A stretch of 64,000 nucleotides of DNA from an uncultured Gammaproteobacteria bacterium (lineage in GTDB: Bacteria > Patescibacteriota > Patescibacteriia > VMEV01 > CAYQCH01): assembly GCA_964503955.1 (NCBI GenBank), contig CAZDCG010000003.1, positions 65,522 through 129,521 on the forward strand, given 5' to 3'. The notes beneath the pieces were generated by a model. It was given only the letters and a program-made list of their open reading frames with translations. It was not told where the DNA came from and did no database searches. The position numbers were made by a program, and so were the translations under genes. Within the stretch, counting starts at the first letter, position 1. Every line of letters begins with the position of its first letter. Below are positions 1 to 55,981 of the stretch, piece after piece.

Positions 1-179
1 GGCCAGGTTATGAGAAGGAGCAGGGGGAATAAGAAACATTATCCACAATTGTTATATTAGCTTGACAGGGTATATGCATAAAATTATCAATGTTTCAAGG
101 TGTTTCGCGGGTTTTTTCGTGTTGTCGTCAACCAGTTCTGACAATTTGCTGAAGTTTGCGAAAAAATGAAACCAAGCCC

Positions 180-208
180 TTGACAAATATTTTCAAAACA
201 AGTAAGTT
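180..208 (+). promoter_or_regulatory. candidate sigma70-like promoter (-35 TTGACA 180-185, 17 bp spacer, -10 TAAGTT 203-208) upstream of GC-rich lipoprotein gene
   Basis: hexamers read directly; weak -10. Confidence 0.3.
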
Positions 209-327
209 TTCCTGTTTCCTCGCTTCGTTATCCACAGTACAATGTGAGTAGGACGAGGCGGGGAATAACCCCGTTCTTGATTGTACTTTCCAATAGTCAG
301 ACCGGCGCCCCGCCGGAGGAGATCATC

Positions 328-2373
328 ATGATGAAGCATAGCCGTTTCCCGGCGGCCCGCGGGGTCGTCGGTTCCTGTCTTGCCATCCTGCTCTGTTCGC
401 TTGCCGCCATTGGCTGCAAGGGCGGAAGCAGCGGCGGCGGAGGCGGTGGCGGCGGCGTCACTCCTCCTCCCGGCGGCGGCGCCAACAACACGGCCCCCGC
501 CTTCACGAGCTCGACGGCTTCGCCGTCCACGCTCAAGAGCAACGAGACGCTGAACCTGCACGCCAGCGCCACCGACGGCGACGGCGACACGCTCTCCTAC
601 GCGTGGTCGCAGACGGCCGGGCCGAGCTTCGGCTCGATCCCGGCCGGTGCCAACGTCAGCCTGACCGCGCCGGCCGTGGCCAGCTCGCAGACGGCTTCGT
701 TCAAGATCGTCGTCAGCGACGGCAAGGGCGGCATCATCGAGCAGACCCACAACGTCACGGTCAACCCGGCCGGCGGCGGTGGGCCTCCTCCTCCGCCGCC
801 TCCGCCTCCGGGGCTCTCGCTCAACGGCATCAGCATCATTCAGATGCCCGAGCTTCAGCAGAGCTCGATCACTCGTCCGACCAATACGTCGGGAAAGATG
901 ATCCGTCTGCACGGCGACTTCTCGTCGTACCATCGCGATCAGTACGCTCTGCGTTACGACAATGGCGGTACGGCGGCGGTCACTTCGCTGCGCCAGGTTC
1001 TCCAGGGCAAGGCCATCGCCTGGGCTGAAGCACCCCGTCTGAGCATGACCGGAATCTACACGCTCTATCTGGACGTGTATGACACGACGACCCAGACCCT
1101 GATCCGCACGGCGGAGGCCCCTCCCGGGGGGCGGCCGGTGATCTCGTACAGCGATCCGGGGACCACCTACGTCGTGTTCAACGGCGAGGACGGCACGATC
1201 AACAACAACGGTCGTGTCTACAGCTTCGAGGTGGCCAATGACGGCACGCCGAGCAATAACCGCTTCATCGCGAGCGGCAACGGGCACGTCAACCGGCCTC
1301 GGTTCACCGCGGCTGGTTCGCAGCATGTCTTCGCCCCCGGCAATGCCGGGTTCGACGGCCTGCTGTTCAAGCTCGATGCCACCAAGACGAGCGGTCAGCT
1401 GTCGCCGTTTGACATCTCTGCTGGCATCCAGCGTGTCGTGATGGACTGCGCGACCTCGACGGTGGGTAATGCCGTGCTCCTGACGCAGACGCCTGGAGAT
1501 GTGTTCGTGGTTGTCGAGGTCGCCAATGACCTCTCCGCCATGGCGATCACCCCGCTGAACAATGCGGGAGTGGGGGCGCTGCTGGCGGGCACGACCATCG
1601 CCGGGTTCGACGTGATCCACTACCAGGAGCACAACGAGGTGGCAAGCGACTACGCGGTCATCGCGACTGCGAGCGGCAGCGACAATGCTGTCTACCTCGT
1701 TCGCCTGAAGGATCAGACGTACCGCCGTGTCGACCTCGGGAGCTTCGTACCCCAGGCCATGAGCGTCATCCTGGATCAGTCGAGCGGGCTGTGGCTGATC
1801 TCGGTTGCTGGGGTGACCTCTGGCACAGGAGCAGCTACTCTCACGGGGCATCAGTTCATGACGATCAAGCTCGACCCTCTCATTCTGATGCCTAGCCCGG
1901 TTGGACCGACGGCTCTGTCTTCGATCACGGCAAACGTGAAATCCTTCCACGTGTTCTGGGATGCTGCCAACAAGCGTCATGTCGGGTGGGTGATCAGTAA
2001 CGGCCTGAATGTGTACACCTGCTACGACCTGACGAACGGAGGGGCTCAGGTCGTCACGTCGGTTTCGAGTCCGTCGAGTACTGGCCCCACGGAGTCGTTG
2101 CGAGCTCGTGGTATGGACGGGTTCGTTGTCTGCTACAGCGGAGCAGCCTTCGGGGCGCTCTTCACGAGCTGGGACGGCAACACCACGGTCAACATCCCGA
2201 CCACCGACGCCCCCGACGCGGTTGCTGTGGGGGATCAGGTGATCGCAGTCGAAGATCGTCACTCCACTGGTCATCTGGTCAAGGTCTATCATGGTCCGAC
2301 CAATGCAACGGTCGACCACATGCCTCCCTTCAGCGCTTCGAGCAATGGAGGGTTGGGAACCGCGCTGCAGTAA
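328..2373 (+). CDS. GC-rich secreted lipoprotein with Gly/Pro-rich linkers and cadherin-like/Ig-like repeat (TDGDGDTLSYAW)
   Basis: GGAGGA 315-320 then ATG 328. Signal peptide with lipobox LAAIGC. Poly-G and poly-P linkers. About 66% GC against a 50% background. The antisense 742-aa ORF is a high-GC artefact. Confidence 0.6.
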   Translation: MMKHSRFPAARGVVGSCLAILLCSLAAIGCKGGSSGGGGGGGGVTPPPGGGANNTAPAFTSSTASPSTLKSNETLNLHASATDGDGDTLSYAWSQTAGPSFGSIPAGANVSLTAPAVASSQTASFKIVVSDGKGGIIEQTHNVTVNPAGGGGPPPPPPPPPGLSLNGISIIQMPELQQSSITRPTNTSGKMIRLHGDFSSYHRDQYALRYDNGGTAAVTSLRQVLQGKAIAWAEAPRLSMTGIYTLYLDVYDTTTQTLIRTAEAPPGGRPVISYSDPGTTYVVFNGEDGTINNNGRVYSFEVANDGTPSNNRFIASGNGHVNRPRFTAAGSQHVFAPGNAGFDGLLFKLDATKTSGQLSPFDISAGIQRVVMDCATSTVGNAVLLTQTPGDVFVVVEVANDLSAMAITPLNNAGVGALLAGTTIAGFDVIHYQEHNEVASDYAVIATASGSDNAVYLVRLKDQTYRRVDLGSFVPQAMSVILDQSSGLWLISVAGVTSGTGAATLTGHQFMTIKLDPLILMPSPVGPTALSSITANVKSFHVFWDAANKRHVGWVISNGLNVYTCYDLTNGGAQVVTSVSSPSSTGPTESLRARGMDGFVVCYSGAAFGALFTSWDGNTTVNIPTTDAPDAVAVGDQVIAVEDRHSTGHLVKVYHGPTNATVDHMPPFSASSNGGLGTALQ

Positions 2374-2410
2374 TGCGGCTCGGATAGAAGAACTCCCGTA
2401 AACGGGAAAC

Positions 2411-2452
2411 GCGCCTCGCAAGGTTTCAAACCATGCGAGGCGCTGTTCTTTA
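2411..2452 (+). terminator. rho-independent terminator, 10-bp perfect stem GCGCCTCGCA/TGCGAGGCGC followed by T-run
   Basis: inverted repeat 2411-2420 / 2435-2444 then tgttcttt. Confidence 0.7.
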
Positions 2453-7422: not shown

Positions 7423-7440
7423 GTGCCCGTAGCTCAGCTT
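7423..7440 (+). repeat. truncated 5' tRNA fragment (GTGCCCGTAGCTCAGCTT) resembling acceptor/D-arm of the adjacent tRNA-Arg
   Basis: 16/18 identity to 7480-7497. Confidence 0.5.
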
Positions 7441-7479
7441 CCGCCGGCGCTGCCAAACGAAAATAGCTGATTTCTTCGC

Positions 7480-7553
7480 GTACCCGTAGCTCAGCTGGAT
7501 AGAGCAACAGCCTTCTAAGCTGTAGGTCGAAGGTTCAAATCCTTCCGGGTACG
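7480..7553 (+). tRNA. tRNA-Arg(TCT)
   Basis: manual cloverleaf. Acceptor GTACCCG/CGGGTAC. Anticodon loop CTTCTAA. T-loop TTCAAAT. Confidence 0.9.
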
Positions 7554-7589
7554 CGAAGGGATTAACATCAACGTTCGGTGCGGGGCGGG

Positions 7590-7661
7590 GAGCAACAGCC
7601 TTCTAAGCTGTAGGTCGAAGGTTCGCCTGCCTGCCGGCAGGCAGGAATCCTTCCGGGTACG
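7590..7661 (+). repeat. partial duplicate of tRNA-Arg (D-stem 3' strand to discriminator) with a 21-nt perfect palindrome (GCCTGCCTGCCGGCAGGCAGG, 7625-7645) inserted in the T-loop; a third short copy at 7703-7716
   Basis: sequence identity to 7502-7553 apart from the insertion; lacks 5' acceptor strand. Confidence 0.7.
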
Positions 7662-7804
7662 CGAAGGGATTAGCGACAACCGTTTTAGGAGAGCGCGGCG
7701 GGGAGCAACAGCCTTCCTTGTTCATTGACGGCGAATCTCCTTTTCCATAACATAGATGCACGCTAGCTGGTTGGCGATTCCAATCACGACAAGATCAATA
7801 ACGG

Positions 7805-7880
7805 GGTGCCCATGGTGAAACGGTTATCACGGAAGCTTGTGGCGCTTCAATTACGGGTTCGATTCCCGTTGGGCACCCCA
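7805..7880 (+). tRNA. tRNA-His(GTG) with encoded G-1 and CCA
   Basis: acceptor GTGCCCA/TGGGCAC. D-stem GTGA/TCAC. Anticodon loop TTGTGGC. G at -1 and discriminator C. Confidence 0.9.
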
Positions 7881-7898
7881 TTGTTGATCTTCATACAT

Positions 7899-7950: not shown

Positions 7951-8062
7951 TTGAACATCTCTAGTTTCTGTTAGCAAAGACTCCCTTGACGGGGAGTTTT
8001 CTGTTGGCTGGACGATTAAGCTATTGCGGGGTACAGTGCCAAATAGGAAAAGGAGGTGGATC

Positions 8063-8761
8063 GTGAGATTGTTCATTTTCATACTATTACTCTGTTTTCT
8101 GCCTATTGCCGCGCTTCTGGCCCAGGACATTCAGGGGAGCGTTTCCCCTGACACCCCGCGCCTGACGGGATCGCAGGAGGATCCGTCCCCCGCCTACAGG
8201 GTTGTCCGCCGTCCACGCGAAGATTGGCGCATGTCCGAATATATCCTGTTTGTCATCGACATTTCAGGATCAATGGACTCCGCCAACCGCTTTGAGAAGG
8301 CGCTGCAGATCGCTCATGACCTCATGGAGGTCAGCACCGACCTCTACTATATCGGCGTGATCGTTTTCAACGATAATCACGAGCGATGGGAAGGCATTCC
8401 GGACGAGGAGAATCGCGTGCCTCCGGGCTGGGCAGCCATGCCCAATGGCGATAACTCCAAGGCGGCGAGGGAATGGGTGCGCTCTAGAGGCACAAGCAGG
8501 AGCACGAACCCGGCAACCGCCTTTCACGCCGCTCTGGCGGAACCGCAGCCCGAGCTCACGGTGGTGTTGATCACGGACGGGGAGTTCAACTACGGCATCA
8601 ACGCGAGGGATCTCTTCGCCGAGGGGCAGGCAAACCGCGTCCGAAACGAACAACCCGAAGCCGGTTTCATCATCTTCGGCGTCGGGGAGAAGTCGGCGCA
8701 AGAACAAAAACTGCTCGACCTCGCCGAGCACGCAACAGGGGGATTTTATGTGCAGGATTAA
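8063..8761 (+). CDS. secreted von Willebrand factor A (vWA) domain protein with MIDAS motif DISGSMDS; GC-rich
   Basis: GGAGG 8052-8056, GTG start 8063. Signal peptide. DxSxS motif. About 60% GC. Confidence 0.7.
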   Translation: MRLFIFILLLCFLPIAALLAQDIQGSVSPDTPRLTGSQEDPSPAYRVVRRPREDWRMSEYILFVIDISGSMDSANRFEKALQIAHDLMEVSTDLYYIGVIVFNDNHERWEGIPDEENRVPPGWAAMPNGDNSKAAREWVRSRGTSRSTNPATAFHAALAEPQPELTVVLITDGEFNYGINARDLFAEGQANRVRNEQPEAGFIIFGVGEKSAQEQKLLDLAEHATGGFYVQD

Positions 8762-8849
8762 CGGAACGGAGGCCGTTGATCCGCTTACGGGGAAGTTGCT
8801 GGAAAACCGCGCTTCCCCGTTCGATTTTCTTGATTTCTCTTCCCATTTA

Positions 8850-8898
8850 CCAGAAGCGTCGTATTGCAATACGACGCTTCTGGTTGAATTTTTTCTTC
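8850..8898 (+). terminator. terminator: 17-bp perfect palindrome CCAGAAGCGTCGTATTG/CAATACGACGCTTCTGG then TTGAATTTTTTCTTC
   Basis: read directly. Confidence 0.7.
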
Positions 8899-11958: not shown

Positions 11959-12193
11959 AAAATGACCTCATTCCTTATGCCAAATAATCCATCGACAGAG
12001 GCCTGAGAGCGGGAAAAAAATAATTGAGTTCCAATCATACCATGAAATATATTTGTTGTCAACCAAGGGCCGGTTACGGGGACAACTCTCAACCTGAAGC
12101 CGCAATGCATAACATCCGAAACGCAAAGACCCCGCCGGCGAACAATTGATGTTCATGGCGGGGTCTGCAAGTCATGCCGGTACAATAGCCCTC

Positions 12194-12637
12194 CTAGGCC
12201 GGCTTCTTCTTGATGAGACGCACCACGGTATTCCCGCGGCTCGTGGCTGCGAGCACCACTCTGCCGTCACGCACCAGCGCGTCGACATACTTCTTGAGCA
12301 CCTTCACGTCAATTGCCAGATCCCGGCTGAGCCGTTCCACGGTGCGGCTCCCGTGCATCTCCAGATGCAGCATGAGCTCCTGGGTATTGAGCCCCTGGAG
12401 ATCCACGGCCTTGTGCCCCTTCTTGGAGACGAGCTTCTCCTCCAGCTGCTGATCCGCGAGCGTCTGGAGAATCTGCTGCACATACGGATGTTCACCCGTA
12501 TGGTCTGGGCAGTAAGGCTTGCCTTCTCGGGTGGTCTGAGCACAGCCCTCCTTCTCGCAGAAGCGCGACCCGTGGCGTCCGGCGCTGCTACTGGCGAATC
12601 GATCCAGGATACGGACATTGTGCGGTTTCTGTGGCAT
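12194..12637 (-). CDS. GC-rich hypothetical protein with Cys/His zinc-ribbon-like segment (CEKEGC...CPDH) and C-terminal winged-helix-like region
   Basis: AAGGAGGAA RBS then ATG at 12637 (MPQKPH). The ORF-track start at 12730 lacks an RBS. Confidence 0.5.
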   Translation of the reverse strand: MPQKPHNVRILDRFASSSAGRHGSRFCEKEGCAQTTREGKPYCPDHTGEHPYVQQILQTLADQQLEEKLVSKKGHKAVDLQGLNTQELMLHLEMHGSRTVERLSRDLAIDVKVLKKYVDALVRDGRVVLAATSRGNTVVRLIKKKPA

Positions 12638-12751
12638 GCGATTCCTCCTTCTAGCATCATGTAAACCACATTTTGCCATTGTCGTCAAAGCTGTTGACGC
12701 AAGCATAAAATAACTGGACGGAGAGGACATCCATGCTATGATAGTTTCAAT

Positions 12752-19639: not shown

Positions 19640-19809
19640 GGTGGAGCAATCAAATCAAGAGAAATCTGAATGGAAACGAAGGAGGGTGGACTTTCATGGT
19701 ATTTTATGTTATATTGCGATGCTACCCGTACGGGTGGAATCGGGGTTTTCCCGATGCGTGAAGTCTTCACACGCAAGACATGAAGGCATGTTCAAATCGG
19801 AGGTGCCGT

Positions 19810-20172
19810 ATGGCGCTTCAGTCCGCTCTGGTTCATGCAACCTACAAGATCATCGGCGGGCCGAGCAAGATGGAACTTATGCTCGGGCTCTTCGACTCCA
19901 CGAGGGCTTTCTCAAGACCCGTCTCCTTCACAGTCGAGACGGAGCCCATGGCCGGACCCATGCTCGCCGGCAGCAAGGGAGATGAGAACTTCCTGCAGCG
20001 CAACATGCAGATCTCCATCACATCGGTAGGAAAGGAGGACGGCTCCGGTGAGAGCTGGAACGTCGAGGGTATGGTCAAGCCTCTGGATCACACCAAAGGC
20101 GACTACGCTCGCGTGCGGATCTACTTCTCGACCCATCGGCGCAACGGCATCTTGAGTTTCATGCATTCCTAA
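19810..20172 (+). CDS. GC-rich orphan protein (120 aa), unknown function
   Basis: GGAGGTG RBS then ATG 19810; about 62% GC; strong terminator follows. Confidence 0.55.
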   Translation: MALQSALVHATYKIIGGPSKMELMLGLFDSTRAFSRPVSFTVETEPMAGPMLAGSKGDENFLQRNMQISITSVGKEDGSGESWNVEGMVKPLDHTKGDYARVRIYFSTHRRNGILSFMHS

Positions 20173-20193
20173 GCACCGCACCCGTGTAAGCGG

Positions 20194-20238
20194 CAGAAGC
20201 GCACCCGCGCCATGCTGCTTCCGGGTGCGCTTCTGTTT
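20194..20238 (+). terminator. terminator: 14-bp perfect stem CAGAAGCGCACCCG/CGGGTGCGCTTCTG, 14-nt loop, TTT
   Basis: read directly. Confidence 0.8.
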
Positions 20239-20340: not shown

Positions 20341-20415
20341 GGCCCCATCGTCTAACGGTTAGGACGCCAGGTTTTCATCCTGGAAATCGGGGTTCGATTC
20401 CCCGTGGGGTCACCA
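20341..20415 (+). tRNA. tRNA-Glu(TTC), CCA encoded
   Basis: GGCCCCATCGTCTAACGGTTAGGACG...; anticodon loop TTTTCAT. Confidence 0.9.
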
Positions 20416-20470
20416 TCAAAAAGCCGTAGAAAGTTTATTCAATTCTGGATGAGCTCTCTACGGCTTTTTG
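20397..20470 (+). repeat. direct repeat copy A: tRNA-Glu 3' end (ATTCCCCGTGGGGTCACCATCAAAAAG) plus hairpin AGCCGTAGA...TCTACGGCT TTTTG
   Basis: shares an ATTCCCC...TCACCA(C/T)(A/C)AAAAA core with copies B and C. Confidence 0.8.
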
Positions 20471-20552
20471 AGATCCAGATCAAGATCTGGATATCTGGAT
20501 TCAAGATCCGAAGGCAGGGAAGCCCTATGGAAGGCCCGCCAGGGCGAGTGAG

Positions 20553-20602
20553 ATTCCCCGTGGTGTCACCACAAAAAGCACCAGTATTTCTGGTGCCTTT
20601 TG
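20553..20602 (+). repeat. direct repeat copy B: ATTCCCCGTGGTGTCACCACAAAAAG plus hairpin GCACCAG-tattt-CTGGTGC CTTTTG
   Basis: 24/27 identity to tRNA-Glu 3' end; different hairpin sequence. Confidence 0.8.
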
Positions 20603-20654
20603 TATGGACCAAAGGAGAGACTAAAACCAAGTGTGCTATAATTGCCCAAGTTAA

Positions 20655-21494
20655 TTGAATTCAATGCCTTCAAAAAGCTCCATTGGTAAATCTGATAAGT
20701 TATTTGCGTTTCCGAAAGATAAGTCGGCACTGGTTAAAATCCAGCGCTCCTTAGAGGAGTACGGAAAAGAACACTGTGATACAGAATCCTTACCCATTGA
20801 CTTGAGTAAGGCTTACGATTTTTTGAAAGACAATGATGGCAAAAACAGGTTGTGGGCGGCATTGATTGATTTTTTGCTTGCATATCTCCATCTCTTCAGG
20901 TCCTTTATGCGTTTCTCAATCAACTGGTCTGATGAGGTGGTTGGTGGCCAAGATACCATACAAGATAGACTTGATCTTCACTATGATCTTTCAAGTTTCA
21001 CTATTAGATATCGAGCTGTGTGGGATAAGTTTATGGGAGTGTACTTGCTCTTGTATGCTCCAAATAAGTACAAAGATTTTTGGAAGGCAAACTCAAAACG
21101 AAAATACTTCTTAAACTTTTTACGAGCTGATCTCGAGAAGCATGAGCTGGCCACTTACATGGAAAAGGTTTTTAATAAGTTCGAGAAAGAATTTAGAACT
21201 GGCGAGATTCATGGCTCAGGAAAGCTTAGATTGTGGAGCTTCCTCCCACCCAAAGAGATAGTTTCGAAAGGTAGTGATGATATGAAAGAGAATATGGTTT
21301 TTCATCTTGTAATGTATTACAACACCCTACTTCAATCTATCCATGTTTTAGGACATTGCTTATCAGGGGAAGATGATTGTTCATGCTATGGGCAAAAAAA
21401 GTCAGTCAAAGTGAAAGCCATATCAAAGAAAAAGCTTCAAACTGCAGAGATTAGTGAAGACGACATTGTTCGAGTAAAAAATTTCTTTGATTGA
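20655..21494 (+). CDS. low-GC (about 37%) orphan protein with an Rx4H motif (RTGEIHGSG); possible HEPN-like nuclease/abortive-infection-type protein
   Basis: compositional outlier bracketed by repeat copies B and C. Confidence 0.5.
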   Translation: MNSMPSKSSIGKSDKLFAFPKDKSALVKIQRSLEEYGKEHCDTESLPIDLSKAYDFLKDNDGKNRLWAALIDFLLAYLHLFRSFMRFSINWSDEVVGGQDTIQDRLDLHYDLSSFTIRYRAVWDKFMGVYLLLYAPNKYKDFWKANSKRKYFLNFLRADLEKHELATYMEKVFNKFEKEFRTGEIHGSGKLRLWSFLPPKEIVSKGSDDMKENMVFHLVMYYNTLLQSIHVLGHCLSGEDDCSCYGQKKSVKVKAISKKKLQTAEISEDDIVRVKNFFD

Positions 21495-21526
21495 GTGAAA
21501 CTACCTGAAATCAGATTTTAATTCTT

Positions 21527-21570
21527 ATTCCCCAAGCTCACCACAAAAACCGCTCAGTGAGCGGTTTTTG
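21527..21570 (+). repeat. direct repeat copy C: ATTCCCCAAGCTCACCACAAAAA plus hairpin CCGCTCA-g-TGAGCGG TTTTTG
   Basis: same core as A/B, again with a distinct hairpin. Confidence 0.75.
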
Positions 21571-33103: not shown

Positions 33104-33253
33104 AAAAATAGCTTGACAATGCGTTAAGGACATTTTAAGGTTCCTGGCCGGCTTACGATGAGCCGGCCGTTTCATCCAGACGTCCTGGATGAGTTCGCTT
33201 GCCAGACCGGTACGCACTGCTCCTGGCAAGCATGTTTTTAGAAGGGAACCGAC

Positions 33254-34012
33254 ATGGATCGCTACCCCGACCAGGAACTGGCCCGCGTCGCCAAGTTCAT
33301 GGGCATCCTGCGTAAAGCAGGTCTGCCTGATCAGTTCTACCAGCGTGTGATCGACGATGACGCGTATCGCACGTGGCTGGTAACTGAGACCACTGCTCGC
33401 ATGCACCTGGTGGTCGAGGAAACCGAGGAACAGATCGAAGCCCGCAAGCTCCTGAAGCGGTTCTACCTCGGCCTGCCCGAGATTGAGCGCCACTTCGGTC
33501 GGCTCTCGCCATCGCAGAAGTCCTTCCTCGAGCTCATGCCGTTCTCGCCGGCGAGCCTTCGGGCTTCCCATGGCCAGCACGTGCTCTTCGCCGACACTGG
33601 CTTGAGCATTGCTGAACTGAGTGAGAAGTTCGCTCCGATCTTCTCTAAGGCGGAGCAGCAGCATGGGCATCAGGATTTTTGGCGCAAAAAGTCCGAATCA
33701 TACTGGAGACTGGTCACACGCGGAGTGCGTGTTCAGTGTGGAACCTGGGAGGAGCAGGTGGGGAAGCTTAGGGCAAACGAGCGCTGCGTTACCGCGCGTG
33801 AGCTCTGCTACCTGCAAATCCTTCATCTCTGTGTCACCGGTGGGTGGCTGTACGATGGCGCACCCATTCGCACGGCCTCCCAGTTGCCTAACGGACAGAG
33901 GGTGGTGCTTTCCTTCAACACCCGTCGGCCCCTCCGCGTCACAGCCGCCGACTACTACAAGGATGATGACATCGTACCGAGAATGGTAGCGGCTAGCTCG
34001 CTCTTCGAGTAG
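33254..34012 (+). CDS. GC-rich orphan protein (252 aa), unknown function
   Basis: about 59% GC; weak AAGGGA RBS. The antisense 232-aa ORF has no RBS and is judged an artefact. Confidence 0.45.
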   Translation: MDRYPDQELARVAKFMGILRKAGLPDQFYQRVIDDDAYRTWLVTETTARMHLVVEETEEQIEARKLLKRFYLGLPEIERHFGRLSPSQKSFLELMPFSPASLRASHGQHVLFADTGLSIAELSEKFAPIFSKAEQQHGHQDFWRKKSESYWRLVTRGVRVQCGTWEEQVGKLRANERCVTARELCYLQILHLCVTGGWLYDGAPIRTASQLPNGQRVVLSFNTRRPLRVTAADYYKDDDIVPRMVAASSLFE

Positions 34013-34077
34013 AAGCCGTTTCATCGGCCCTCCGTCAACGCAGTTTCTCTGTGGACGGGGGGCCGCTTCGTTTATGA

Positions 34078-34110
34078 ACAAAAAACCGCCCCGGAGGGCG
34101 GTTTTGTTGT
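34078..34110. terminator. bidirectional terminator CCGCCC-cgga-GGGCGG flanked by A-run and T-run
   Basis: read directly. Confidence 0.75.
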
Positions 34111-34116
34111 CGCGTA

Positions 34117-35316
34117 TTACGCGGCCTGCTTTTCTTCAACTTTTTCCGCTTTGGCAGGAGCGTTTTTCTGTTTCAGGCTGAGGCCCAAGCGATGCTGTTC
34201 TGATTCGATAGAGATGATCTTAAATTCCATCTCATCGCCAGGTTTGGCAATGGTTGTTGGATCTTCAACCGGTTTGTCGGAAAGCTCTGAAACGTGAGCG
34301 AGACCGTGGATCTCTTCATCCAGTTCCACAAAGAGTCCGAATGGATTAACCTTGAGCACTTTGCCTTTGACGATGTCGCCGACTTTGTAGCGCTCAGCGG
34401 CCTTCTTCCAAGGATCTTCCTGCAGTTTCTTGATAGAGAGGGAGATCTTTGATCCGTCTACCGCGATGATTTCCGCTTTGACTTTGTCGCCGATTTTCAC
34501 GAGATCATGCGGATTCTCGATGCGCTGCCAAGCAAGCTCAGAAATGTGCACAAGTCCTTCAAGCCCCTCGTCGAATTCCACGAAAGCGCCGAAATCAACA
34601 ACGCCGGTAACGGTTCCTTCAACAACGGTTCCAACCTTGTATTTCTCAAGAAGGTCCTTCTGGCGTTCTTCCCAGGCAGCTTTTTCAGAAACGATGAGTT
34701 TCTCATCTTCTTCTGAAACGTCAATCACTTTTACTTCAAGCGATTTATTAACGAGCTGATTGAGTTTTTCAAGGATCTTGTTCTTGTCGCCGCCTTCAAC
34801 GCGCGGGTAGTGCTCGGTTGTCAGCTGTGAAACAGGGAGGAAGCCGACTACATGTCCGACACGGGCCATCAGACCGCCTTTGTTCGCGCTGATGATTTTG
34901 GCCGCGATAATCTTGCCGCTCTTCATCAAGCCTTCAAGATTGTCCCAGGCTTTCTGATGTCCGGCATGGCGGAATGACAATTCCACTTCGCCGTTTTCGT
35001 TTTCAAGTTCAACCACGGTCGCTTCAACGCTGTCGCCCGGCTTGATGTCGGAGTATTCTCCGCTTTCGTCTTCAAGTTCCGGACCGCGCACGACACCGGT
35101 TGCAACACCGCCCAAATCGAGGCGGACAAGGTTTTTTGCTGTGCTGATAACGGTTCCCTGAACAAGCTCGCCCGGTTTTGGAATCAGGGACTGCTGTTCT
35201 TCCATCAGCTTCTGCATGGCATCCAGCTGCTCGGTGTCTTCAAGCTGCTGGCCGATTTTTGATGATACTGGCATAAGAATCGGGAATTTAGGCATAAAAA
35301 AAGAGGATATGCCCAA
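34117..35316 (-). CDS. rpsA: 30S ribosomal protein S1 (four S1 domains, short form)
   Basis: repeated S1 motifs G..V.G.V..V..FGAFV. Confidence 0.9.
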   Translation of the reverse strand: MGISSFFMPKFPILMPVSSKIGQQLEDTEQLDAMQKLMEEQQSLIPKPGELVQGTVISTAKNLVRLDLGGVATGVVRGPELEDESGEYSDIKPGDSVEATVVELENENGEVELSFRHAGHQKAWDNLEGLMKSGKIIAAKIISANKGGLMARVGHVVGFLPVSQLTTEHYPRVEGGDKNKILEKLNQLVNKSLEVKVIDVSEEDEKLIVSEKAAWEERQKDLLEKYKVGTVVEGTVTGVVDFGAFVEFDEGLEGLVHISELAWQRIENPHDLVKIGDKVKAEIIAVDGSKISLSIKKLQEDPWKKAAERYKVGDIVKGKVLKVNPFGLFVELDEEIHGLAHVSELSDKPVEDPTTIAKPGDEMEFKIISIESEQHRLGLSLKQKNAPAKAEKVEEKQAA

Positions 35317-44406: not shown

Positions 44407-44509
44407 ATGGAAACATTATACGACGCATCAGCGCGCGGAAGCAATCGGGATAACAGTTGATTTGAACAGTTCACCATGCTAACGTGGCCTCCAGCCTGGA
44501 GGCAAGACC

Positions 44510-44692
44510 ATGCAGGATCCGACGAATCCGGTTTCTTTCGGTCGTTATCTGTCCAAGGGCGATGCCACTTCGACGGTCGTGGGCATCGTCATCCTGGTCA
44601 TCGCGTTGGTGGCCGTTGCGATCTATAAGGGGAGTCAGCCTGTTTCGAATCCGAACCAGGAGCCCCCCGCGGCGACGACCAGTCCTCGGTAG
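44510..44692 (+). CDS. small GC-rich single-TM protein (60 aa), speculative
   Basis: ATG after hairpin; TM VVGIVILVIALVAVAIY. Confidence 0.3.
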   Translation: MQDPTNPVSFGRYLSKGDATSTVVGIVILVIALVAVAIYKGSQPVSNPNQEPPAATTSPR

Positions 44693-44752
44693 AGACCGCG
44701 ATGCCGCCGCTGTACAGGCGGCCGGCTCGTCAAACTGAAAAGGGGAAAGAAA

Positions 44753-45355
44753 ATGGATACGGATATCAGGGATGCCTATCTACTCTGGCAGCATACCGGC
44801 ACGCCTGGTGATGAGGCCGAATGGCTGCTTGAGTGTCTGCGTGCCGGACGCATTTGCAAACTTCGCTTGCAGGCGGCGGCCGAGCTTGGGCATCAGGCTT
44901 CGCGCATAGTGCTCAACCTCACGGATGACGGCAGCGAGAACGCTGAATGGCCGCGCGCGCTTGCCATGGTGGGGAGGGAAGCCTGTGTGATGGCTGGCGC
45001 GGTCGTCACGCGGGAGATCGCGCAATCGGTCTTTGGGGAGGACATACCTGAGCTCGTCGGCGAAATCGTCCGCCTCTCGTCTGAGTGGCTTGAAGCGGAC
45101 AATGGACGAGACGAGCTTGAGCAGCAGGCCAGGCGATTGGCCCGGCACTGTTTTGACACCAGGCTTGAAGGGGATGAATACCTGGTCTTTGAGGCGGCAA
45201 GCATCCTGGGCTTGTTCATGTATGCTCCGCTCGAGCAGCCGGTAGACAGCCTTCTCAGCCTGATCCGTGAGCAGCGCATTCCTGTTTTTTCGACGATCCG
45301 CACCGCGGTGTCCCGGGAGCTTGTCTCATGGCTTGTGCATCGCCATGCTGAATAA
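44753..45355 (+). CDS. GC-rich orphan protein (200 aa), unknown function
   Basis: about 62% GC. Confidence 0.5.
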   Translation: MDTDIRDAYLLWQHTGTPGDEAEWLLECLRAGRICKLRLQAAAELGHQASRIVLNLTDDGSENAEWPRALAMVGREACVMAGAVVTREIAQSVFGEDIPELVGEIVRLSSEWLEADNGRDELEQQARRLARHCFDTRLEGDEYLVFEAASILGLFMYAPLEQPVDSLLSLIREQRIPVFSTIRTAVSRELVSWLVHRHAE

Positions 45356-45449
45356 GGCCGGTCCTTTCCCTTCGCGGGGAGGGGGCCGGTTCTTCTTTTT
45401 ACGATGAGAAGGAAGGGGAAACGTACCACCCCAAAGAGTCCCTTTGCTG

Positions 45450-52482: not shown

Positions 52483-53256
52483 ATGCATAAACATGTTCTG
52501 ATCACGATGTTCTTTTTTGGGGCTGTACTAACGTTAAGCGGTTGCCAGTTAATCCGCCAGAGCTCTGAGGCAGACGAGCTGGTTCAGTCTGAACAGCAGG
52601 CAAGCCATCCTGAATTGTCTGGCGAGATGCTGCTTGATGGCCAGCACTATCAGTTGGTTCTTACAAAACAGCCGGCTGGAGCAAGCTTCTTTCTATCAGG
52701 CAGAGAACTCTGCTTTGAACAAAATCCAACCCAGAGCGAATTGGCAGAGTTAGAGTTCATTGTTCTGAAAAAACAATCAGGTGGTACCCGCGAAGTAAAC
52801 GGAACGCTGCTTTCTGGCGCATTTGCCGAGAAAGGCTGTCTGCTCTTTGAGAAGATTGTTTCTTCACAACAGATCATCTTTTCCCTGAGAACGGGAGATG
52901 GTCTTGCGAGCACAAAAGAGTATTTCAGCCTGGCCGGGACACAATCGGAATCGTTGTACCTGGTACGCAGCTGGGAAACCATGGATGACGAAGGCGTTGT
53001 TGAGTATACGGCCTGGGTTGTCGCAAACAGATACTTTCTACAGGCAAAGGCAGGAAAAGACGGCGGATCGGTTTTCAGGGGAGCAAATCCAAGCATTTCA
53101 TCCGGCCATTTTATGCTTGAGCCGGAGGGGGAGGTCGTTTTGCAAACAAATCAGCCGCTTGAGTTTAACGCACTTGATGAACGCAATATCAACGGATATA
53201 AAAACGGTTTGACCTTTAAGCATGCCGGACAGGATATCACGCTAGGGTGGGAGTAG
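52483..53256 (+). CDS. lipoprotein (LTLSGCQ), unknown function
   Basis: lipobox. Confidence 0.6.
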   Translation: MHKHVLITMFFFGAVLTLSGCQLIRQSSEADELVQSEQQASHPELSGEMLLDGQHYQLVLTKQPAGASFFLSGRELCFEQNPTQSELAELEFIVLKKQSGGTREVNGTLLSGAFAEKGCLLFEKIVSSQQIIFSLRTGDGLASTKEYFSLAGTQSESLYLVRSWETMDDEGVVEYTAWVVANRYFLQAKAGKDGGSVFRGANPSISSGHFMLEPEGEVVLQTNQPLEFNALDERNINGYKNGLTFKHAGQDITLGWE

Positions 53257-53353
53257 GTTTCTGCTCTCCGAACCGGCCTGCCCCGGCTCGGAGTACGCCT
53301 GTACTCTCATCGGAGAAATCTGATGCGTCCTTTTAACATCGAGGAGATGCATC

Positions 53354-55687
53354 ATGCCGCGAGCCATCTTGGCTTTGCTCCTGCTTGGATCCTTGCCAGG
53401 CACCTGCCTGGCCCAGGCCGAGCGATGCGCGTTTTATGCGCAGAACCCTTCCCTCATTCAGGTGGGGCAAGGGCAAGTCATCGAGCGCGAGGTGGAAATC
53501 GTCTACACCAATACGGGGACATCCACCTGGCAGAGGACGGGAGGTGTTTCTAATCTCTCGTACATCGAGCTGCGCGCGGTCAATCAGCAAGGAGCCGTCA
53601 TCGACGGCCCGCTCTACCATCCTACCTGGATCAACCGCCAGCGCGTGGGGTCGTATCTCAGCATTCAGGGCGGGGTTGCTCCTTCGCAGCGCGCCAGATT
53701 CGTGTTCAAGGTTCTCGTGGATGGTTCAATACTCGCGCCCGGATCGCATGATTTCTACTTCCGCCCATATCATGCGAGCGGAGGATATATCAGCGACTGG
53801 GGCGGCTGCCATATCACCGTGACGGTGACACAGGGCGGGGCTACGCAGCCTCAGGTTCCTGCCGCGACCATCCTCTCCATCACGCCCAATCCGGCCGCAA
53901 GCGGTCAAGCGGTTTCGATCTCCGGTTCAGCAACGAATCAGCCGATCGAGTATCGATGGGAAAGCCAGGGGCAACTCCTGTCTGATCAAGCGTCCTTTTC
54001 GCGCGTATTCGCTTCCGGCGTGCATCAGATTGGTTTTCGCGCCAGAAACGCGCAAGGCTGGGGTACTTGGCAATACGCCACGCTCACGGTCAACAGCCCG
54101 TCGCCAACTTCCCAGCAATCCTACATCGACCAGGTGCTCGTGCCTCAGGTCGAGTACGCGGGGCCGGGGACGGTCGGACAGCCGGTCAACCTGGTTACGT
54201 CCGCCGCCGAGGTGCGCAAGTACCATGAGCTGCAGCTGGCTGGTCACGGGGTTCCGTCTTCAACAGGGCACGAATGGTTCGTGCGCCAGAACGGCCAGAT
54301 CAAGCCGGTTGCTACTCAGGCTGCTGCTATCGTGAACACGGCTGACTTCTTTGACGGACAGCAGGAGCTGCTCTACCGGACGCGCGGCGCGAACGGAGTC
54401 TGGAGCAGCTACGCGGTCCTGCCGATCAATGTCAGTCCCTGGCCGAAGCTGATCCCGCCGGTGCATGGTTCCTGGGCGCGAAGCGGCAACGATTACGGGG
54501 AGGGGGATCATACTCGGTCCGGCTCATACGACCATCTCCACGCGCAGGATTACAACCAGGCGAATGGAGAACCGGCCAATGCGGATTTCGGGCGTGAAAT
54601 CATCGCGCCGCTTTCCGGCAAGGTGACTGCTCTTGGCGCATCGGCCAACGGAGGCCGGTATGTGACCATTGAGTCATCCGACTCCGGTGTTCTGTACCGC
54701 GCATCGTTTTACCATCTCATGACGATAGCCGTCGAACAGAATGAGGTGGTTGCGCAGGGGCAGCCTATCGGTCTTTGCGGTAATACGGGACAGGCTTCCA
54801 CCGGATCGCATCTGCATTATGTGCTGCATCGCCAGCAAGGCGGGGCATGGGTTTCGGTTGCGCCCGAGCCGGTCTGGGTGGAACCCGCCCGGCTTGAGCA
54901 AAGCATCCCGCATGACTGGCAGCGCGATATTCGCGCAAACAGCCGAGTCTTGCCAAGCAGCTTGCTGATCCTTCAGGAGCAGGTCAGCGGTGGGGTGACG
55001 GATATGCACGGCTGGGGGCATGTGATGAAATACGCGCCAACGGTTTCCGGCCAGCCCACGGCGAGCCAGATCCTGCAGTGCGTTATCCCCGTTGCCGGGC
55101 GATGGAAGCTCTTTGCGCATAACCCAAGCGGTTTTACCAATAGCAATGCTGGATCGCCCGCTCACAATACGAGCGGAAAGGCAGTATTTGAGGTGACCAG
55201 ATCCTCGCAGCCAGGTCCTGCTACGCATGAAGTAGACCAGCACAATGGGGAAAAGGGAGCGCTGGTGTTCATCTGCGAAATCGATGCGCAGCAAGGAGAA
55301 ACCCTGATGATCCGGCAGCACAATGCAACCGGGGAACAGGGTAAGGAAGTTGCTTTTGACGAGCTCATCCTCAAGCTCGTGCATGCTTCTGGAGCAGGAG
55401 GAGGAGGTTCTGGAGGCGGATCCTCAAGCGGGGGATCTTCTTCCGGCGGGGGTTCAGGTGGAACATCTCCCTCAAACCCGCCTTCTCCACCGCCACCGCC
55501 CCCACCTTCATCTTCTTCGTCTTCTCCATCTCAAGGAGGTGCCGCAACGACTCCATCAGCAGGCGGGGGAGGCGGCGGTGGTGGCGGATGCAGCATGAGC
55601 AGCTCGGGCGGTCCGTCGTCTGCCTCGCTCTCGCTGCTCATCTGCAGCCTGTTTCTCGTTTTCGTCTTCAGGAGAGTCATCTCCTAA
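53354..55687 (+). CDS. GC-rich secreted M23/LytM-family metallopeptidase with long N-terminal domains and Gly/Ser/Pro-rich tail ending in a hydrophobic helix plus RR
   Basis: GGAG RBS; HxxxD and HLHYVLH M23 motifs; C-terminal GGGGGGGGGCSMSSSGG...LFLVFVFRRVIS. Confidence 0.75.
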   Translation: MPRAILALLLLGSLPGTCLAQAERCAFYAQNPSLIQVGQGQVIEREVEIVYTNTGTSTWQRTGGVSNLSYIELRAVNQQGAVIDGPLYHPTWINRQRVGSYLSIQGGVAPSQRARFVFKVLVDGSILAPGSHDFYFRPYHASGGYISDWGGCHITVTVTQGGATQPQVPAATILSITPNPAASGQAVSISGSATNQPIEYRWESQGQLLSDQASFSRVFASGVHQIGFRARNAQGWGTWQYATLTVNSPSPTSQQSYIDQVLVPQVEYAGPGTVGQPVNLVTSAAEVRKYHELQLAGHGVPSSTGHEWFVRQNGQIKPVATQAAAIVNTADFFDGQQELLYRTRGANGVWSSYAVLPINVSPWPKLIPPVHGSWARSGNDYGEGDHTRSGSYDHLHAQDYNQANGEPANADFGREIIAPLSGKVTALGASANGGRYVTIESSDSGVLYRASFYHLMTIAVEQNEVVAQGQPIGLCGNTGQASTGSHLHYVLHRQQGGAWVSVAPEPVWVEPARLEQSIPHDWQRDIRANSRVLPSSLLILQEQVSGGVTDMHGWGHVMKYAPTVSGQPTASQILQCVIPVAGRWKLFAHNPSGFTNSNAGSPAHNTSGKAVFEVTRSSQPGPATHEVDQHNGEKGALVFICEIDAQQGETLMIRQHNATGEQGKEVAFDELILKLVHASGAGGGGSGGGSSSGGSSSGGGSGGTSPSNPPSPPPPPPPSSSSSSPSQGGAATTPSAGGGGGGGGGCSMSSSGGPSSASLSLLICSLFLVFVFRRVIS

Positions 55688-55981
55688 AGACAGGGAGGGT
55701 AAGTCTTCTGAACTTGCCCTCCTTTTCACATTCTGCGGATATAGATCGAGCTGCTCCTCTTCAGACGGATGGATGGGCAAGCAGGTACCTGATACCTCAA
55801 GCGTTACAGCTGGATTCGAGATTCATCCGCGCCGTTAGTGCTCCAGCGTAGTGGAAAAAGCTTTCTTCTCAACGAATATAGTTAAATGCCTCTAAATCGT
55901 TGATTTTTTCGATATTCATTGCCAGCCCGGTTTCAAGGAGGTATAGTGATTCTGCGCCGTCGTTAATATCGAGGTGGCTTT

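What the first reader, a model, noticed from the sequence alone, without database searches (positions are those of the whole stretch)
1..55700. Multiple discrete high-GC islands (60-66%) in a 50% GC background, mostly encoding secreted or surface proteins
The islands lie at 328-2373 (lipoprotein), 8063-8761 (vWA), 12194-12637 (Zn-ribbon/wHTH), 19810-20172, 33254-34012, 44510-45355 and 53354-55687 (M23 peptidase). Each is a single gene or gene pair bounded by strong hairpin terminators or tRNAs. Each shows spurious long antisense ORFs typical of foreign high-GC DNA. This suggests repeated horizontal acquisition from a high-GC donor, for example an actinobacterial host if this is an episymbiont.
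Basis: partly seen in the sequence, partly recalled or inferred. Interest (0 to 1): 0.6.

Follow-up and report, generated by a model that had tools for sequence, protein, structure and literature searches.

The report
GC-rich, Shine-Dalgarno-led gene cassettes
Seven GC-rich single-gene islands in this small symbiont-type (CPR/Patescibacteria) genome are real, and each carries its own ribosome-binding site and strong terminator in a genome whose ordinary genes use neither; they look like long-resident accessory genes, not fresh imports from a high-GC host.

Summary
All seven islands have GC 0.58-0.64 against a 0.50 background. Their third-codon-position GC is 3.7-13 SD above what the genome's own codon usage predicts for the same proteins.

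- The M23 peptidase island has full-length homologues only in related CPR genomes. It is syntenic there, its divergence tracks housekeeping genes, and it is GC-enriched in all six genomes examined.
- The islands' GC-normalised tetranucleotide signature is native, not foreign.
- Island 5 is an orphan that exists as two old alleles (dS 0.66) between identical flanks.
- Only island 6 belongs to a family that otherwise looks high-GC.

New finding: the islands form a distinct gene class.
- Each has a canonical Shine-Dalgarno site (mean -9.6 versus -1.8 kcal/mol for core genes; core genes show no enrichment over chance).
- Each ends in an unusually long GC-stem hairpin (-27.9 versus -16.2 kcal/mol).
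- Several have long structured leaders, whereas core genes are short-leader or leaderless.

Best reading: these are self-contained accessory cassettes of non-core ancestry, acquired at different times, whose GC excess is maintained rather than residual. What maintains it is unresolved.

The parts
243..2449 (+). Island 1 cassette. Leader with hairpins (about 218-318), SD GGAGGAG, CDS 328-2373 (681 aa; signal peptide with a lipobox-like Cys, G/P linkers, one PKD domain, orphan C-terminal 500 aa), and 3' hairpin 2405-2449.
   Evidence: GC 0.639, GC3 0.80, z = +13. PKD Pfam hit 35.6 bits versus cut-off 27. Only PKD-domain homologues were found. SD -9.5 kcal/mol. Hairpin -27.0 kcal/mol.
8063..8885 (+). 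Island 2 cassette. SD AAGGAGGTG, GTG start at 8063, vWA-domain protein with an N-terminal hydrophobic segment and DxSxS (DISGS), and 3' hairpins 8781-8825 and 8841-8885. It lies between tRNA-His (7806-7880) and tRNA-Leu (9060-9145, minus strand).
   Evidence: GC3 0.71, z = +5.3. VWA 30.6 bits versus cut-off 23.8. SD -12.9. Hairpin -27.1. The tRNA-His 3' end is duplicated at 7938-7960.
12124..12660 (-). Island 3 cassette. SD AAGGAGG, CDS 12637-12194 (147 aa; Cys/His cluster plus a basic C-terminal half), and 3' hairpin 12124-12168.
   Evidence: GC 0.61, GC3 0.77. SD -11.7. Hairpin -27.3/-28.0. No Pfam, PADLOC or PHROG family; one weak ORF80-family hit, E = 0.003.
19700..20236 (+). Island 4 cassette. 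A -10-like box about 94 nt upstream, structured leader, SD GGAGGTG, CDS 19810-20172 (120 aa, no family), and 3' hairpin 20192-20236. It lies just upstream of tRNA-Glu (20341-20415).
   Evidence: GC3 0.76-0.78. SD -10.8. Hairpin -31.0. -10 box distance.
33104..34126 (+). Island 5 cassette. Leader with two hairpins, weak SD GAAGGGA, CDS 33254-34012 (252 aa orphan), and 3' hairpins 34022-34066 and 34082-34126. The segment 33279-34100 is an allelic-replacement tract.
   Evidence: GC3 0.73, z = +6.2. Its single homologue is P0041, 78% aa identity. L091 is 100% identical for 526 nt upstream and 98-100% downstream, but 74-88% identical inside. dS 0.66, dN 0.12, omega 0.18.
44484..45393 (+). Island 6 cassette. 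GC-rich upstream segment with a possible SD-led 60-aa ORF (44510-44692), SD AAGGGGA, CDS 44753-45355 (200 aa, all-alpha), and 3' hairpin 45349-45393. It sits between a Xer-type tyrosine recombinase (43435-44406, minus strand) and rpsO (45961-46290).
   Evidence: GC 0.60, GC3 0.675. 80 distant homologues with high-GC-type composition. One homologue lies on a 67% GC contig. Absent near rpsO in L085, L086, L089 and L090. AF2 pLDDT 94, no specific fold match. Hairpin -28.3.
53257..55733 (+). Island 7 cassette. Conserved two-hairpin leader, SD GAGGAG, CDS 53354-55687 (777 aa: signal peptide, conserved N-domain, Ig-like insert, M23 peptidase, C-domain, poly-G/P/S linker, invariant Cys, TM, RR), and 3' hairpin 55689-55733.
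   Evidence: GC 0.602, GC3 0.656, z = +5.9. Peptidase_M23 55.1 bits versus cut-off 28.7. Orthologues are syntenic and GC-enriched. Descent is vertical. Leader covariation. SD is present in all six orthologues.
20396..21549 (+). Contrast case. A low-GC (0.38) orphan gene, 20655-21494, is bracketed by repeats of the tRNA-Glu 3' end (20396-20421 / 20552-20577; TCACCACAAAAA at 20566 and 21538). It has no SD and looks like a classical tRNA-integrated mini-island.
   Evidence: GC3 z = -3.9. Repeats. SD -0.2.

Best explanation
The seven islands form one gene class. Each is a monocistronic, self-contained expression cassette: usually a long, hairpin-rich leader, a canonical Shine-Dalgarno site 4-7 nt before the start, a GC3-rich ORF, and a long perfect GC stem-loop. 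The host is a Patescibacteria (CPR) genome whose roughly 43 core genes in this window have short leaders or none, and no SD signal above chance.

The cassettes encode accessory, lineage-restricted proteins. Three are surface or host-contact proteins (PKD lipoprotein, vWA protein, M23 peptidoglycan hydrolase). Four are small cytoplasmic proteins of unknown function.

Inferred history: they have non-core, probably xenologous ancestry and entered the lineage at different times.
- M23 was present before the sampled clade diverged and has descended vertically since.
- Island 6 arrived after the window's lineage split from its relatives.
- Island 5 is exchanged as whole-gene alleles by homologous recombination between strains that are about 99.5-100% identical.

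The GC excess is not a leftover of recent import from a high-GC host. It persists in a vertically inherited gene between genomes so diverged that I infer synonymous sites are saturated, and it coexists with a native oligonucleotide signature. It is therefore actively maintained.

Inferred mechanism: in a host that initiates translation on unstructured, AU-rich, leaderless mRNAs, a GC-rich and therefore structured mRNA can be translated only through an SD. SD, structured leader, GC-rich body and strong terminator would then be retained together as an insulated, separately regulated unit.

What is shown: the composition, SD and terminator dichotomy; synteny and vertical descent of M23; allelic replacement at island 5; the native tetranucleotide signature.
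What is inferred: foreign ancestry, the functional link between SD and GC, and the force that maintains GC.
For: GC3 excess controlled for protein sequence.

SD dichotomy.
- Islands average -9.6 kcal/mol and core genes -1.8 (p = 2.8e-5).
- Six of 7 island starts reach -7.5 or lower, against 7.8% of random island positions (P = 1.4e-6).
- Six of 43 core starts reach -6 or lower, against 3.9 expected by chance (P = 0.19).
- The result survives testing alternative start codons.

Terminator dichotomy.

Leaders. Core -10 boxes end 8-24 nt before start codons. The two detectable island -10 boxes lie 84 and 94 nt upstream.

The same dichotomy appears in relatives. Core genes there are SD-less. M23 orthologues and other GC-rich small ORFs are SD-led.

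M23 history.
- Homologues occur only in the CPR clade.
- Synteny is conserved.
- Identities track PNPase.
- GC is enriched in all six genomes. GC3 is clearly above background in four of them, for example 0.53 versus 0.16-0.30 in L084.
- The leader is conserved with compensatory changes.

Native signature. Tetranucleotide r = 0.568, inside the native range (0.60 +/- 0.06) and above all 138 foreign pieces. The five small islands give r = 0.532, above all 160 foreign pieces.

Island 5 alleles, against a strain background about 99.5% identical.

Island 6 high-GC-type family.

The GC excess extends modestly into UTRs: 0.50 versus 0.45.
Against: - The force that keeps GC high is not identified.
- In the two relatives with GC3-rich backgrounds (L089, L090), M23's GC3 (0.71-0.73) is not above background. 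An alternative is that these genes simply did not follow a genome-wide GC decline.
- Foreign ancestry is directly suggested only for island 6, and weakly for the PKD domain of island 1. M23 has no detectable homologue outside the clade.
- No direct repeats flank the GC-rich islands.
- The 16S 3' end is not in the window, so SD function is inferred from conservation only.
- The sample is 50 genes from one 64-kb window plus five 17-22 kb relatives.
Confidence: 0.55

Rival explanations
1. Each island is a separate, fairly recent horizontal acquisition from a high-GC donor such as an actinobacterial host, and its GC is the donor's composition not yet ameliorated.
For: Atypical GC3. SD sites and long U-tract-poor GC hairpins that do not match the host's style. 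tRNA or Xer adjacency for islands 2, 4 and 6. Island 6's family has a high-GC-type composition, and one member lies on a 67% GC contig. The island 1 PKD domain's named relatives include Myxococcota.
Against: M23 is restricted to the clade, syntenic, vertically inherited and GC-enriched in all six genomes. The tetranucleotide signature is native and better than every foreign or high-GC control. No donor-like homologue exists for islands 1 and 5 among 5.8 billion proteins. Island 6's best hits are at most 41% identical over 90 aa. No actinobacterial hit was found, and no flanking direct repeats.
Confidence: 0.12
2. Native genes with no foreign ancestry. A local process raises and holds their GC. 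Candidates are GC-biased gene conversion at loci that recombine often because they are under diversifying selection, or selection for stable, structured mRNAs.
For: Native tetranucleotide signature. Persistence in M23 orthologues. Whole-gene allelic exchange at island 5, with both alleles at about 0.60 GC and a symmetric substitution spectrum. GC excess reaches into UTRs. Sister-sample contigs break at island edges. Heterogeneity is stable in both directions: the T4SS-like genes are persistently GC3-poor.
Against: From my own knowledge, reported bacterial gBGC effects amount to a few GC3 points, not 10-25. Other fast-evolving genes here are not GC-rich (p257 is 19-33% identical with GC3 0.51; the T4SS-like genes have GC3 0.44). 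This model does not explain the SD and terminator style, or island 6's high-GC-type relatives.
Confidence: 0.25
3. Artefact. The islands are chimeric assembly or binning errors, or the GC peaks merely reflect Gly/Pro/Ala-rich low-complexity protein segments.
For: Islands 1 and 7 contain poly-G and poly-P linkers. GC2 is raised (0.52-0.53).
Against: The same junctions are assembled independently in several runs. GC3 is raised after conditioning on the protein sequence, and uniformly along the genes.
Confidence: 0.01

Closest known systems
Classical genomic islands / atypical (horizontally transferred) genes
   Same: Discrete blocks with deviant GC and codon usage. Some lie next to tRNA genes or a tyrosine recombinase. 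They encode accessory and orphan genes, and content varies between relatives (island 6; the rpsO-NYN spacer).
   Different: They are GC-richer than the host, whereas atypical genes are more often GC-poorer (PMC6028130). They are single genes without mobility genes or flanking repeats. The oligonucleotide signature is native. One island (M23) is vertically inherited across a deep clade yet still atypical. HGT and genomic islands in Patescibacteria are documented, mostly as transfer within the phylum (PMC12455944), but not this pattern.
Genomes with dual start signals: leaderless plus SD-led genes (GeneMarkS-2 group C, e.g. Mycobacterium, Deinococcus)
   Same: Pribnow-type boxes lie close to start codons for many genes, and a separate set of leadered genes uses an SD (PMC6028130).
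   Different: In group C genomes, internal operon genes and most leadered genes use SD. Here operon-internal core genes also lack SD, and SD use coincides almost exactly with the GC-rich atypical genes.
SD-poor lineages in which the anti-SD is lost or sequestered (part of Parcubacteria, PMC9297842; Bacteroidia, from my own knowledge)
   Same: Core genes initiate without an SD. A few SD-bearing genes stand out as a possible special translational class.
   Different: The window holds no rRNA or bS21 data. The SD-led genes here are accessory, GC-rich cassettes rather than ribosomal-protein autoregulators.
Flexible or hypervariable loci with allele replacement in natural populations (metagenomic islands; the hypervariable gene in a Gracilibacterium, PMC6851277)
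   Same: Island 5 is 19% divergent between identical flanks, and assemblies break at island edges.
   Different: Variation is whole-gene allelic under purifying selection (omega 0.18). It is not repeat-driven or DGR-like. The product is a small cytoplasmic orphan, not a surface repeat protein.

Membership tests
Horizontally acquired genomic island | Base composition and codon usage deviate from the host core | tested here: met
   GC3 z = +3.7 to +13 for all seven islands.
Horizontally acquired genomic island | Oligonucleotide signature deviates from the host | tested here: not met
   TETRA r = 0.568, at the 29th percentile of native pieces and above all 138 foreign controls. Islands 1 and 7 and the five small islands each look native.
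Horizontally acquired genomic island | Insertion at a tRNA or next to an integrase, with flanking direct repeats | tested here: inconclusive
   Islands 2 and 4 lie beside tRNAs and island 6 beside a Xer-type recombinase. No repeats bracket any GC-rich island. Repeats bracket only the low-GC gene 20655-21494.
Horizontally acquired genomic island | Absent from close relatives; homologues found in a donor lineage | tested here: inconclusive
   Met for island 6 (absent in four relatives; distant high-GC-type family). Not met for island 7 (syntenic, vertical). Islands 1 and 5 have no donor. Islands 2-4 were not searched.
Peptidase M23 (island 7) | M23 catalytic domain above the Pfam gathering score; conserved metal-binding His residues | tested here: met
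   PF01551 55.1 bits versus cut-off 28.7. H486-L-H488 and further His/Asp residues are invariant in 16 sequences. The HxxxD motif was not mapped residue by residue.
von Willebrand factor A domain (island 2) | VWA domain above cut-off; MIDAS DxSxS motif | tested here: met
   PF00092 30.6 bits versus cut-off 23.8. The sequence reads D-I-S-G-S.
Bacterial lipoprotein (island 1) | Signal peptide ending in a lipobox [LVI][ASTVI][GAS]C | tested here: inconclusive
   The sequence is ...LCSLAAIGC-KGG. Position -3 is Ala, not Leu/Val/Ile. No predictor was available.
MYXO-CTERM / JDVT-CTERM type C-terminal sorting signal (island 7 tail) | Cys-containing motif, then TM helix, then basic cluster; match to the NCBIfam model | tested here: inconclusive
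   The architecture is invariant in 16 sequences. One tail scores 20.2 bits against the MYXO-CTERM cut-off of 20. JDVT-CTERM scores 21.3 (below its cut-off of 27). GlyGly-CTERM scores 16.8 against 15.5 in another tail. The window's own tail is below all cut-offs. The cognate protease was not sought.
Leaderless-type genome (GeneMarkS-2 group C) | Pribnow box about 6-10 nt from the start of first-in-operon genes; other genes SD-led | tested here: inconclusive
   Eleven core genes have a -10 box ending 2-24 nt before the start, four of them at 8-9 nt. Operon-internal core genes lack SD. There are no TSS data.
Anti-SD-lacking or anti-SD-sequestering ribosome lineage | 16S 3' end without CCUCC, or bS21-dependent occlusion | not testable with these tools
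   The window has no rRNA or rpsU gene. PMC9297842 reports that the anti-SD is missing in part of Parcubacteria.

The most novel reading that the evidence does not exclude
This CPR clade may run two translation-initiation regimes. Housekeeping genes would be leaderless and SD-independent. A small regulon of GC-rich, structured-leader, SD-dependent cassettes, including the host-cell-wall hydrolase and adhesins, would be translated only under particular conditions, for example host contact, an RNA helicase, or a ribosome subpopulation with an exposed anti-SD. Under this reading the high GC is selected as part of that insulation, which would explain why it persists in vertically inherited members and why newly captured genes must conform to the same architecture.
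Probability: 0.2. Interest if true: 0.75.

Novelty: new variant of a known kind. Interest (0 to 1): 0.55.

Why it matters
Compositional islands are routinely read as recent horizontal transfer, and in episymbiotic CPR bacteria they are tempting evidence for gene flow from the host. Here that shortcut fails. The best-documented island is old, vertically inherited and still atypical, and the islands carry the host's own oligonucleotide signature.

The link between GC-richness and a canonical SD plus a private terminator, in a genome that otherwise ignores SD, suggests that expression architecture filters or shapes which genes can be GC-rich. If this holds genome-wide, it would have three uses.
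- It gives a simple sequence rule for picking out the accessory or host-interaction gene set of such uncultivated organisms.
- It warns against amelioration-based dating.
- It offers a testable case of dual translation-initiation modes in the CPR.

Tried and rejected
- Structured-RNA explanation. An Rfam gathering scan found only the 8 tRNAs.
- Phage, plasmid or defence origin. The five small island proteins gave no tblastn hit in 50,697 phage or 72,556 plasmid records. There were no PADLOC hits, and the PHROG hits were only generic M23 and vWA matches. IMG/VR had no relatives of islands 2, 3, 4 or the M23 family.
- A common repeat or MITE at island ends. No direct repeats bracket the islands.
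- Homology between the GC-rich rpsO-NYN spacer elements of relatives and the window. None by blastn or tblastx. Their small ORFs align only weakly.
- A link with secretion. Other secreted proteins are not GC-rich.
- A link with fast evolution as such. p257 and the T4SS-like genes evolve fast but are not GC-rich.
- Highly-expressed-gene codon bias. S15, S1, IF2, PNPase and SSB have average GC3.
- DGR-like hypermutation at island 5. All substitution types occur, third positions dominate, and omega is 0.18.
- Synteny search for the 0-21 kb region in JGI metagenomes. The query found nothing. The M23 profile scan returned only two truncated contigs.
- Strain variants at islands 4, 6 and 7 through exact look-ups of flanking proteins. 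Only identical copies were found.
- Structure of island 5. The model is unusable (pLDDT 37).
- Fold of island 6. The model is confident, but it gives only generic helical-bundle matches.
- The afdb50 fold library was unavailable.


Full report
**What the window is.** The 64-kb window has a median GC of 0.50 and carries ordinary housekeeping genes: IF2, RbfA, TsaD, FtsH, GyrA, NusB, RNase III, S15, PNPase, SSB, PilB/PilT and 8 tRNAs. Its PNPase is at most 57-58% identical to any species representative in GTDB. The best matches are Patescibacteria MAGs labelled Magasanikbacteria, Buchananbacteria, Falkowbacteria and Komeilibacteria. Identical DNA occurs in several single-run assemblies of one study, SRR11843815 to SRR11843836. 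The organism is therefore an uncultivated CPR bacterium with no close genome in the reference set. The junctions discussed below are not assembly chimeras.

**Checking the observation.** All seven islands are real and sharply bounded. Per-gene GC is 0.58-0.64. To separate codon choice from amino-acid content, I re-encoded each protein 300 times with the codon usage of the other 43 genes. Expected GC3 is about 0.55 for every gene. The islands have 0.66-0.80, z = +3.7 to +13. A-ending codons are the most depleted, 0.04-0.14 against 0.21.

- The excess is uniform along the two long genes, including conserved domains.
- An eighth GC peak at 63000-63500 has normal GC3 and is driven by amino acids. 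It serves as an internal control.
- Each island gene is followed by a much stronger hairpin than other genes, mean -27.9 versus -16.2 kcal/mol, p = 2e-5. These are long perfect GC stems without the A-tract/T-tract frame of the genome's usual bidirectional terminators.
- 'Mostly secreted or surface' holds for islands 1, 2 and 7 only. The largest surface protein of the window is GC3-poor.

**Testing the horizontal-transfer reading: island 7.** The M23 peptidase has 16 homologous clusters at 39-48% identity covering most of its length, and nothing else. I placed five of them on DNA.

- Three keep the whole order S15 - NYN - x - PNPase - trypsin-like - SSB - x - M23 - x - RNase T - T4SS-like genes.
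- One keeps SSB - x - M23 - asparaginase-like.
- One, from a genome with a 35% GC background, is in a different context.
- Pairwise identities of M23 follow those of PNPase, S15, SSB and the other neighbours. The trio L085/L086/L089 is closest, then L090, then the window. This indicates vertical descent since the common ancestor.
- The gene is GC-enriched in every genome: 0.515 versus about 0.35, 0.566 versus 0.47, 0.62 versus 0.50, 0.61 versus about 0.54, 0.595 versus about 0.55, and 0.60 versus 0.50.
- GC3 is far above all neighbours in four genomes. In the two relatives whose background GC3 is already 0.65-0.70, it merely equals the background.

At 70% PNPase identity I infer that synonymous sites are saturated, so a composition left over from a donor should have decayed. 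The excess must therefore be maintained, or the gene escaped a genome-wide decline.

**The other islands.**
- Island 1 is an orphan except for one PKD domain. That domain's repeat-rich relatives include Myxococcota proteins.
- Island 5 has a single homologue among 5.8 billion proteins. That homologue lies on a contig from a sister sample. The contig matches the window perfectly for 526 nt upstream and at 98-100% downstream, but at only 74-88% from codon 17 to the terminator.
- The two island 5 alleles differ by dS 0.66 and dN 0.12 (omega 0.18). Both have GC of about 0.60, and the substitution spectrum is symmetric. Another contig of that variant strain is 99.5% identical to the window. Island 5 is thus a real gene under purifying selection, swapped as a whole-gene allele between near-identical genomes.
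- Island 6 has about 80 distant relatives, at most 41% identical and mainly over the first 90 residues. Their composition (GARP 0.38, FYMINK 0.095, Lys 1.6%) is that of high-GC organisms. One sits on a 67% GC contig beside vWA and FHA/PKD genes.
- Island 6 is missing near rpsO in four relatives. This is the only island for which transfer from a high-GC lineage is positively indicated.
- The island 6 protein models confidently as an 11-helix bundle with no specific structural relative.
- Islands 2-4 could not be searched against the large databases. They have no phage, plasmid, IMG/VR or defence-system matches.

**Genome signature.** I computed tetranucleotide z-scores normalised for tri- and dinucleotide content. 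The seven islands correlate with the rest of the window at r = 0.568. Same-size native samples give 0.60 +/- 0.06, and 138 same-size pieces of other genomes give 0.28 +/- 0.12 (none reaches 0.568; the high-GC maximum is 0.45). The five small islands alone give 0.532, above all 160 foreign pieces. Islands 1 and 7 individually fall in the native range. The closest CPR relatives reach 0.34-0.56. Donors within the clade cannot therefore be excluded, but remote high-GC donors in the recent past are unlikely.

**A second, independent dichotomy.**
- Every island gene has a canonical SD 4-7 nt before its start: GGAGGAG, AAGGAGGTG, AAGGAGG, GGAGGTG, GAAGGGA, AAGGGGA and GAGGAG.
- Anti-SD duplex energy averages -9.6 kcal/mol for islands and -1.8 for 43 core genes, p = 2.8e-5.
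- Given the frequency of such motifs at random positions inside the islands (7.8%), six of seven is P = 1.4e-6. Core starts show no enrichment over chance, 6 observed against 3.9 expected. Allowing alternative starts does not change this.
- Many core genes instead have extended -10 boxes (TGnTAnnnT) ending 2-24 nt before the start codon, which implies leaderless or very short-leader mRNAs. The recognisable -10 boxes of islands 1 and 4 lie 84 and 94 nt upstream, followed by hairpins.
- The five relatives show the same pattern. Core genes lack SD. All six M23 orthologues have one after correcting two mis-called starts. The other GC-rich small ORFs, in the rpsO-NYN spacer, are SD-led.
- The M23 leader contains two hairpins conserved through compensatory changes: 6 of 12 pairs, 98.6% of cells paired, 0 of 500 shuffles reaching this, and slid controls at 12-50%. 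The hairpins are conserved even in the non-syntenic genome, so leader, SD and ORF travel as one unit.
- The GC excess reaches modestly into the flanking UTRs, 0.50 versus 0.45. It is therefore not purely a codon-level effect.

**Interpretation.** The islands are best described as a class of self-contained, SD-led, hairpin-terminated accessory cassettes in a genome that otherwise initiates without SD. Their expression signals, accessory content, variable presence and tRNA or Xer neighbourhoods point to non-core, probably xenologous ancestry. Their ages differ: M23 is ancient, island 6 is later, and island 5 is still being exchanged.

The native signature and the persistence of the excess in M23 show that 'unameliorated donor composition' is not the explanation. 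I infer a functional coupling. GC-rich, structured mRNAs cannot use the host's leaderless, unstructured mode of initiation and so depend on an SD. That dependence both filters which foreign genes can be expressed and keeps the cassette features together.

The force holding GC3 high is unresolved. Candidates are selection on mRNA structure or stability, biased gene conversion at frequently recombining loci, or exemption from a genome-wide GC decline. Reported bacterial gBGC effects are small (my own knowledge), and other fast-evolving genes here are not GC-rich, so gBGC alone seems insufficient.

**Relation to the literature.**
- Genomic islands and HGT are documented in Patescibacteria, mostly as transfer within the phylum (PMC12455944).
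- Atypical genes are usually GC-poorer than their host, and genomes with leaderless transcription use dual start models (PMC6028130).
- The anti-SD motif is missing in part of Parcubacteria (PMC9297842).
- I found no description of SD use coinciding with a GC-rich gene class in a CPR genome, but only a few literature searches were run.

**Verdict.**
- The feature is a new variant of known kinds (atypical-gene islands; dual initiation modes).
- It is of moderate interest, limited by the small sample and the unidentified maintaining force.

Noticed in passing
window 53257-53353; L084:9864-9976, L085:9855-9967, L086/L089:9891-10003, L090:4484-4596: There is a conserved two-hairpin 5' leader upstream of the SD of all six M23 orthologues. 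Six of its 12 base pairs show compensatory changes, 98.6% of cells are paired, and 0 of 500 shuffles reach this. It has no Rfam family and is a candidate cis-regulatory RNA.
   Followed up: partly
window 55560-55687 (C-terminus of the M23 protein) and all 16 family members: The C-terminal tail is invariant: poly-Gly, one invariant Cys, a short spacer, a TM helix and an Arg-Arg cluster. Some members give borderline matches to the MYXO-CTERM, JDVT-CTERM and GlyGly-CTERM sorting-signal models. This may be a sortase-like C-terminal processing signal in the CPR.
   Followed up: partly
window-wide, e.g. upstream of 9374, 12752, 32096, 43435(-), 18554(-), 20655, 21862(-), 22948, 25081: Core genes carry extended -10 boxes (TGnTAnnnT) ending 8-24 nt before the start codon, and show no SD enrichment over chance. 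This implies leaderless or very short-leader mRNAs as the default in this organism.
   Followed up: partly
window 20396-21549: The low-GC (0.38) orphan gene 20655-21494 is bracketed by repeats of the tRNA-Glu 3' end, including an exact 12-mer TCACCACAAAAA at 20566 and 21538. It looks like a classical tRNA-integrated mini-element, compositionally opposite to the GC-rich islands.
   Followed up: partly
window 7423-7737 and 7868-7960: tRNA-Arg(TCT) at 7480-7554 is surrounded by partial copies of itself. The 5' end recurs at 7423-7439. The anticodon-to-T-arm segment recurs exactly at 7590-7624. The 3' end recurs at 7646-7680 after a 21-nt insertion, and a degenerate copy lies at 7703-7737. The tRNA-His 3' end is also duplicated at 7938-7960. 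These may be remnant attachment sites or pseudo-tRNAs.
   Followed up: no
window 58707-63730; L085:13545-21909; L086:13681-18822; L089:13761-22039: A conserved T4SS-like block (large membrane protein, two unknown proteins, PrgI-like, TraC-like, VirB4/TraG-like ATPase) lies downstream of the M23 gene in four genomes. It is persistently GC3-poor relative to each genome. The M23 hydrolase may be the cell-wall-opening partner of this apparatus.
   Followed up: no
L085:1964-2503, L086:2602-3410, L089:2628-3417, L090:10516-11329: In four relatives the rpsO-NYN spacer holds a 0.5-0.8 kb GC-rich segment (ORF GC 0.60-0.71). It carries two small SD-led ORFs encoding basic, disordered-looking proteins (about 100 and 64 aa) that are barely alignable between genomes. 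The window has only 160 nt there.
   Followed up: partly
window 193-2421 (minus strand): A 742-codon antisense ORF spans the whole of island 1, because the sense gene contains no TTA, CTA or TCA codon among 48 Leu and 66 Ser. This is probably a by-product of GC3 0.80 and A3 0.04, but coding potential of the antisense frame was not tested.
   Followed up: partly
L093 ends at window 19778; L097 and L098 start at 45329 and 45262; L003 = window 53218-56092; L002 starts at 44367: Contigs from sister samples tend to break at island edges. This would be expected if island content or alleles vary between co-existing strains. Variation was proven only for island 5.
   Followed up: partly
window 62639-63730: The GC peak at 63000-63500 (0.59) lies inside a conserved T4SS-associated gene. 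It is caused by an Ala/Pro/Glu-rich segment (GC1 0.66, GC3 0.54) and is not part of the island class.
   Followed up: yes
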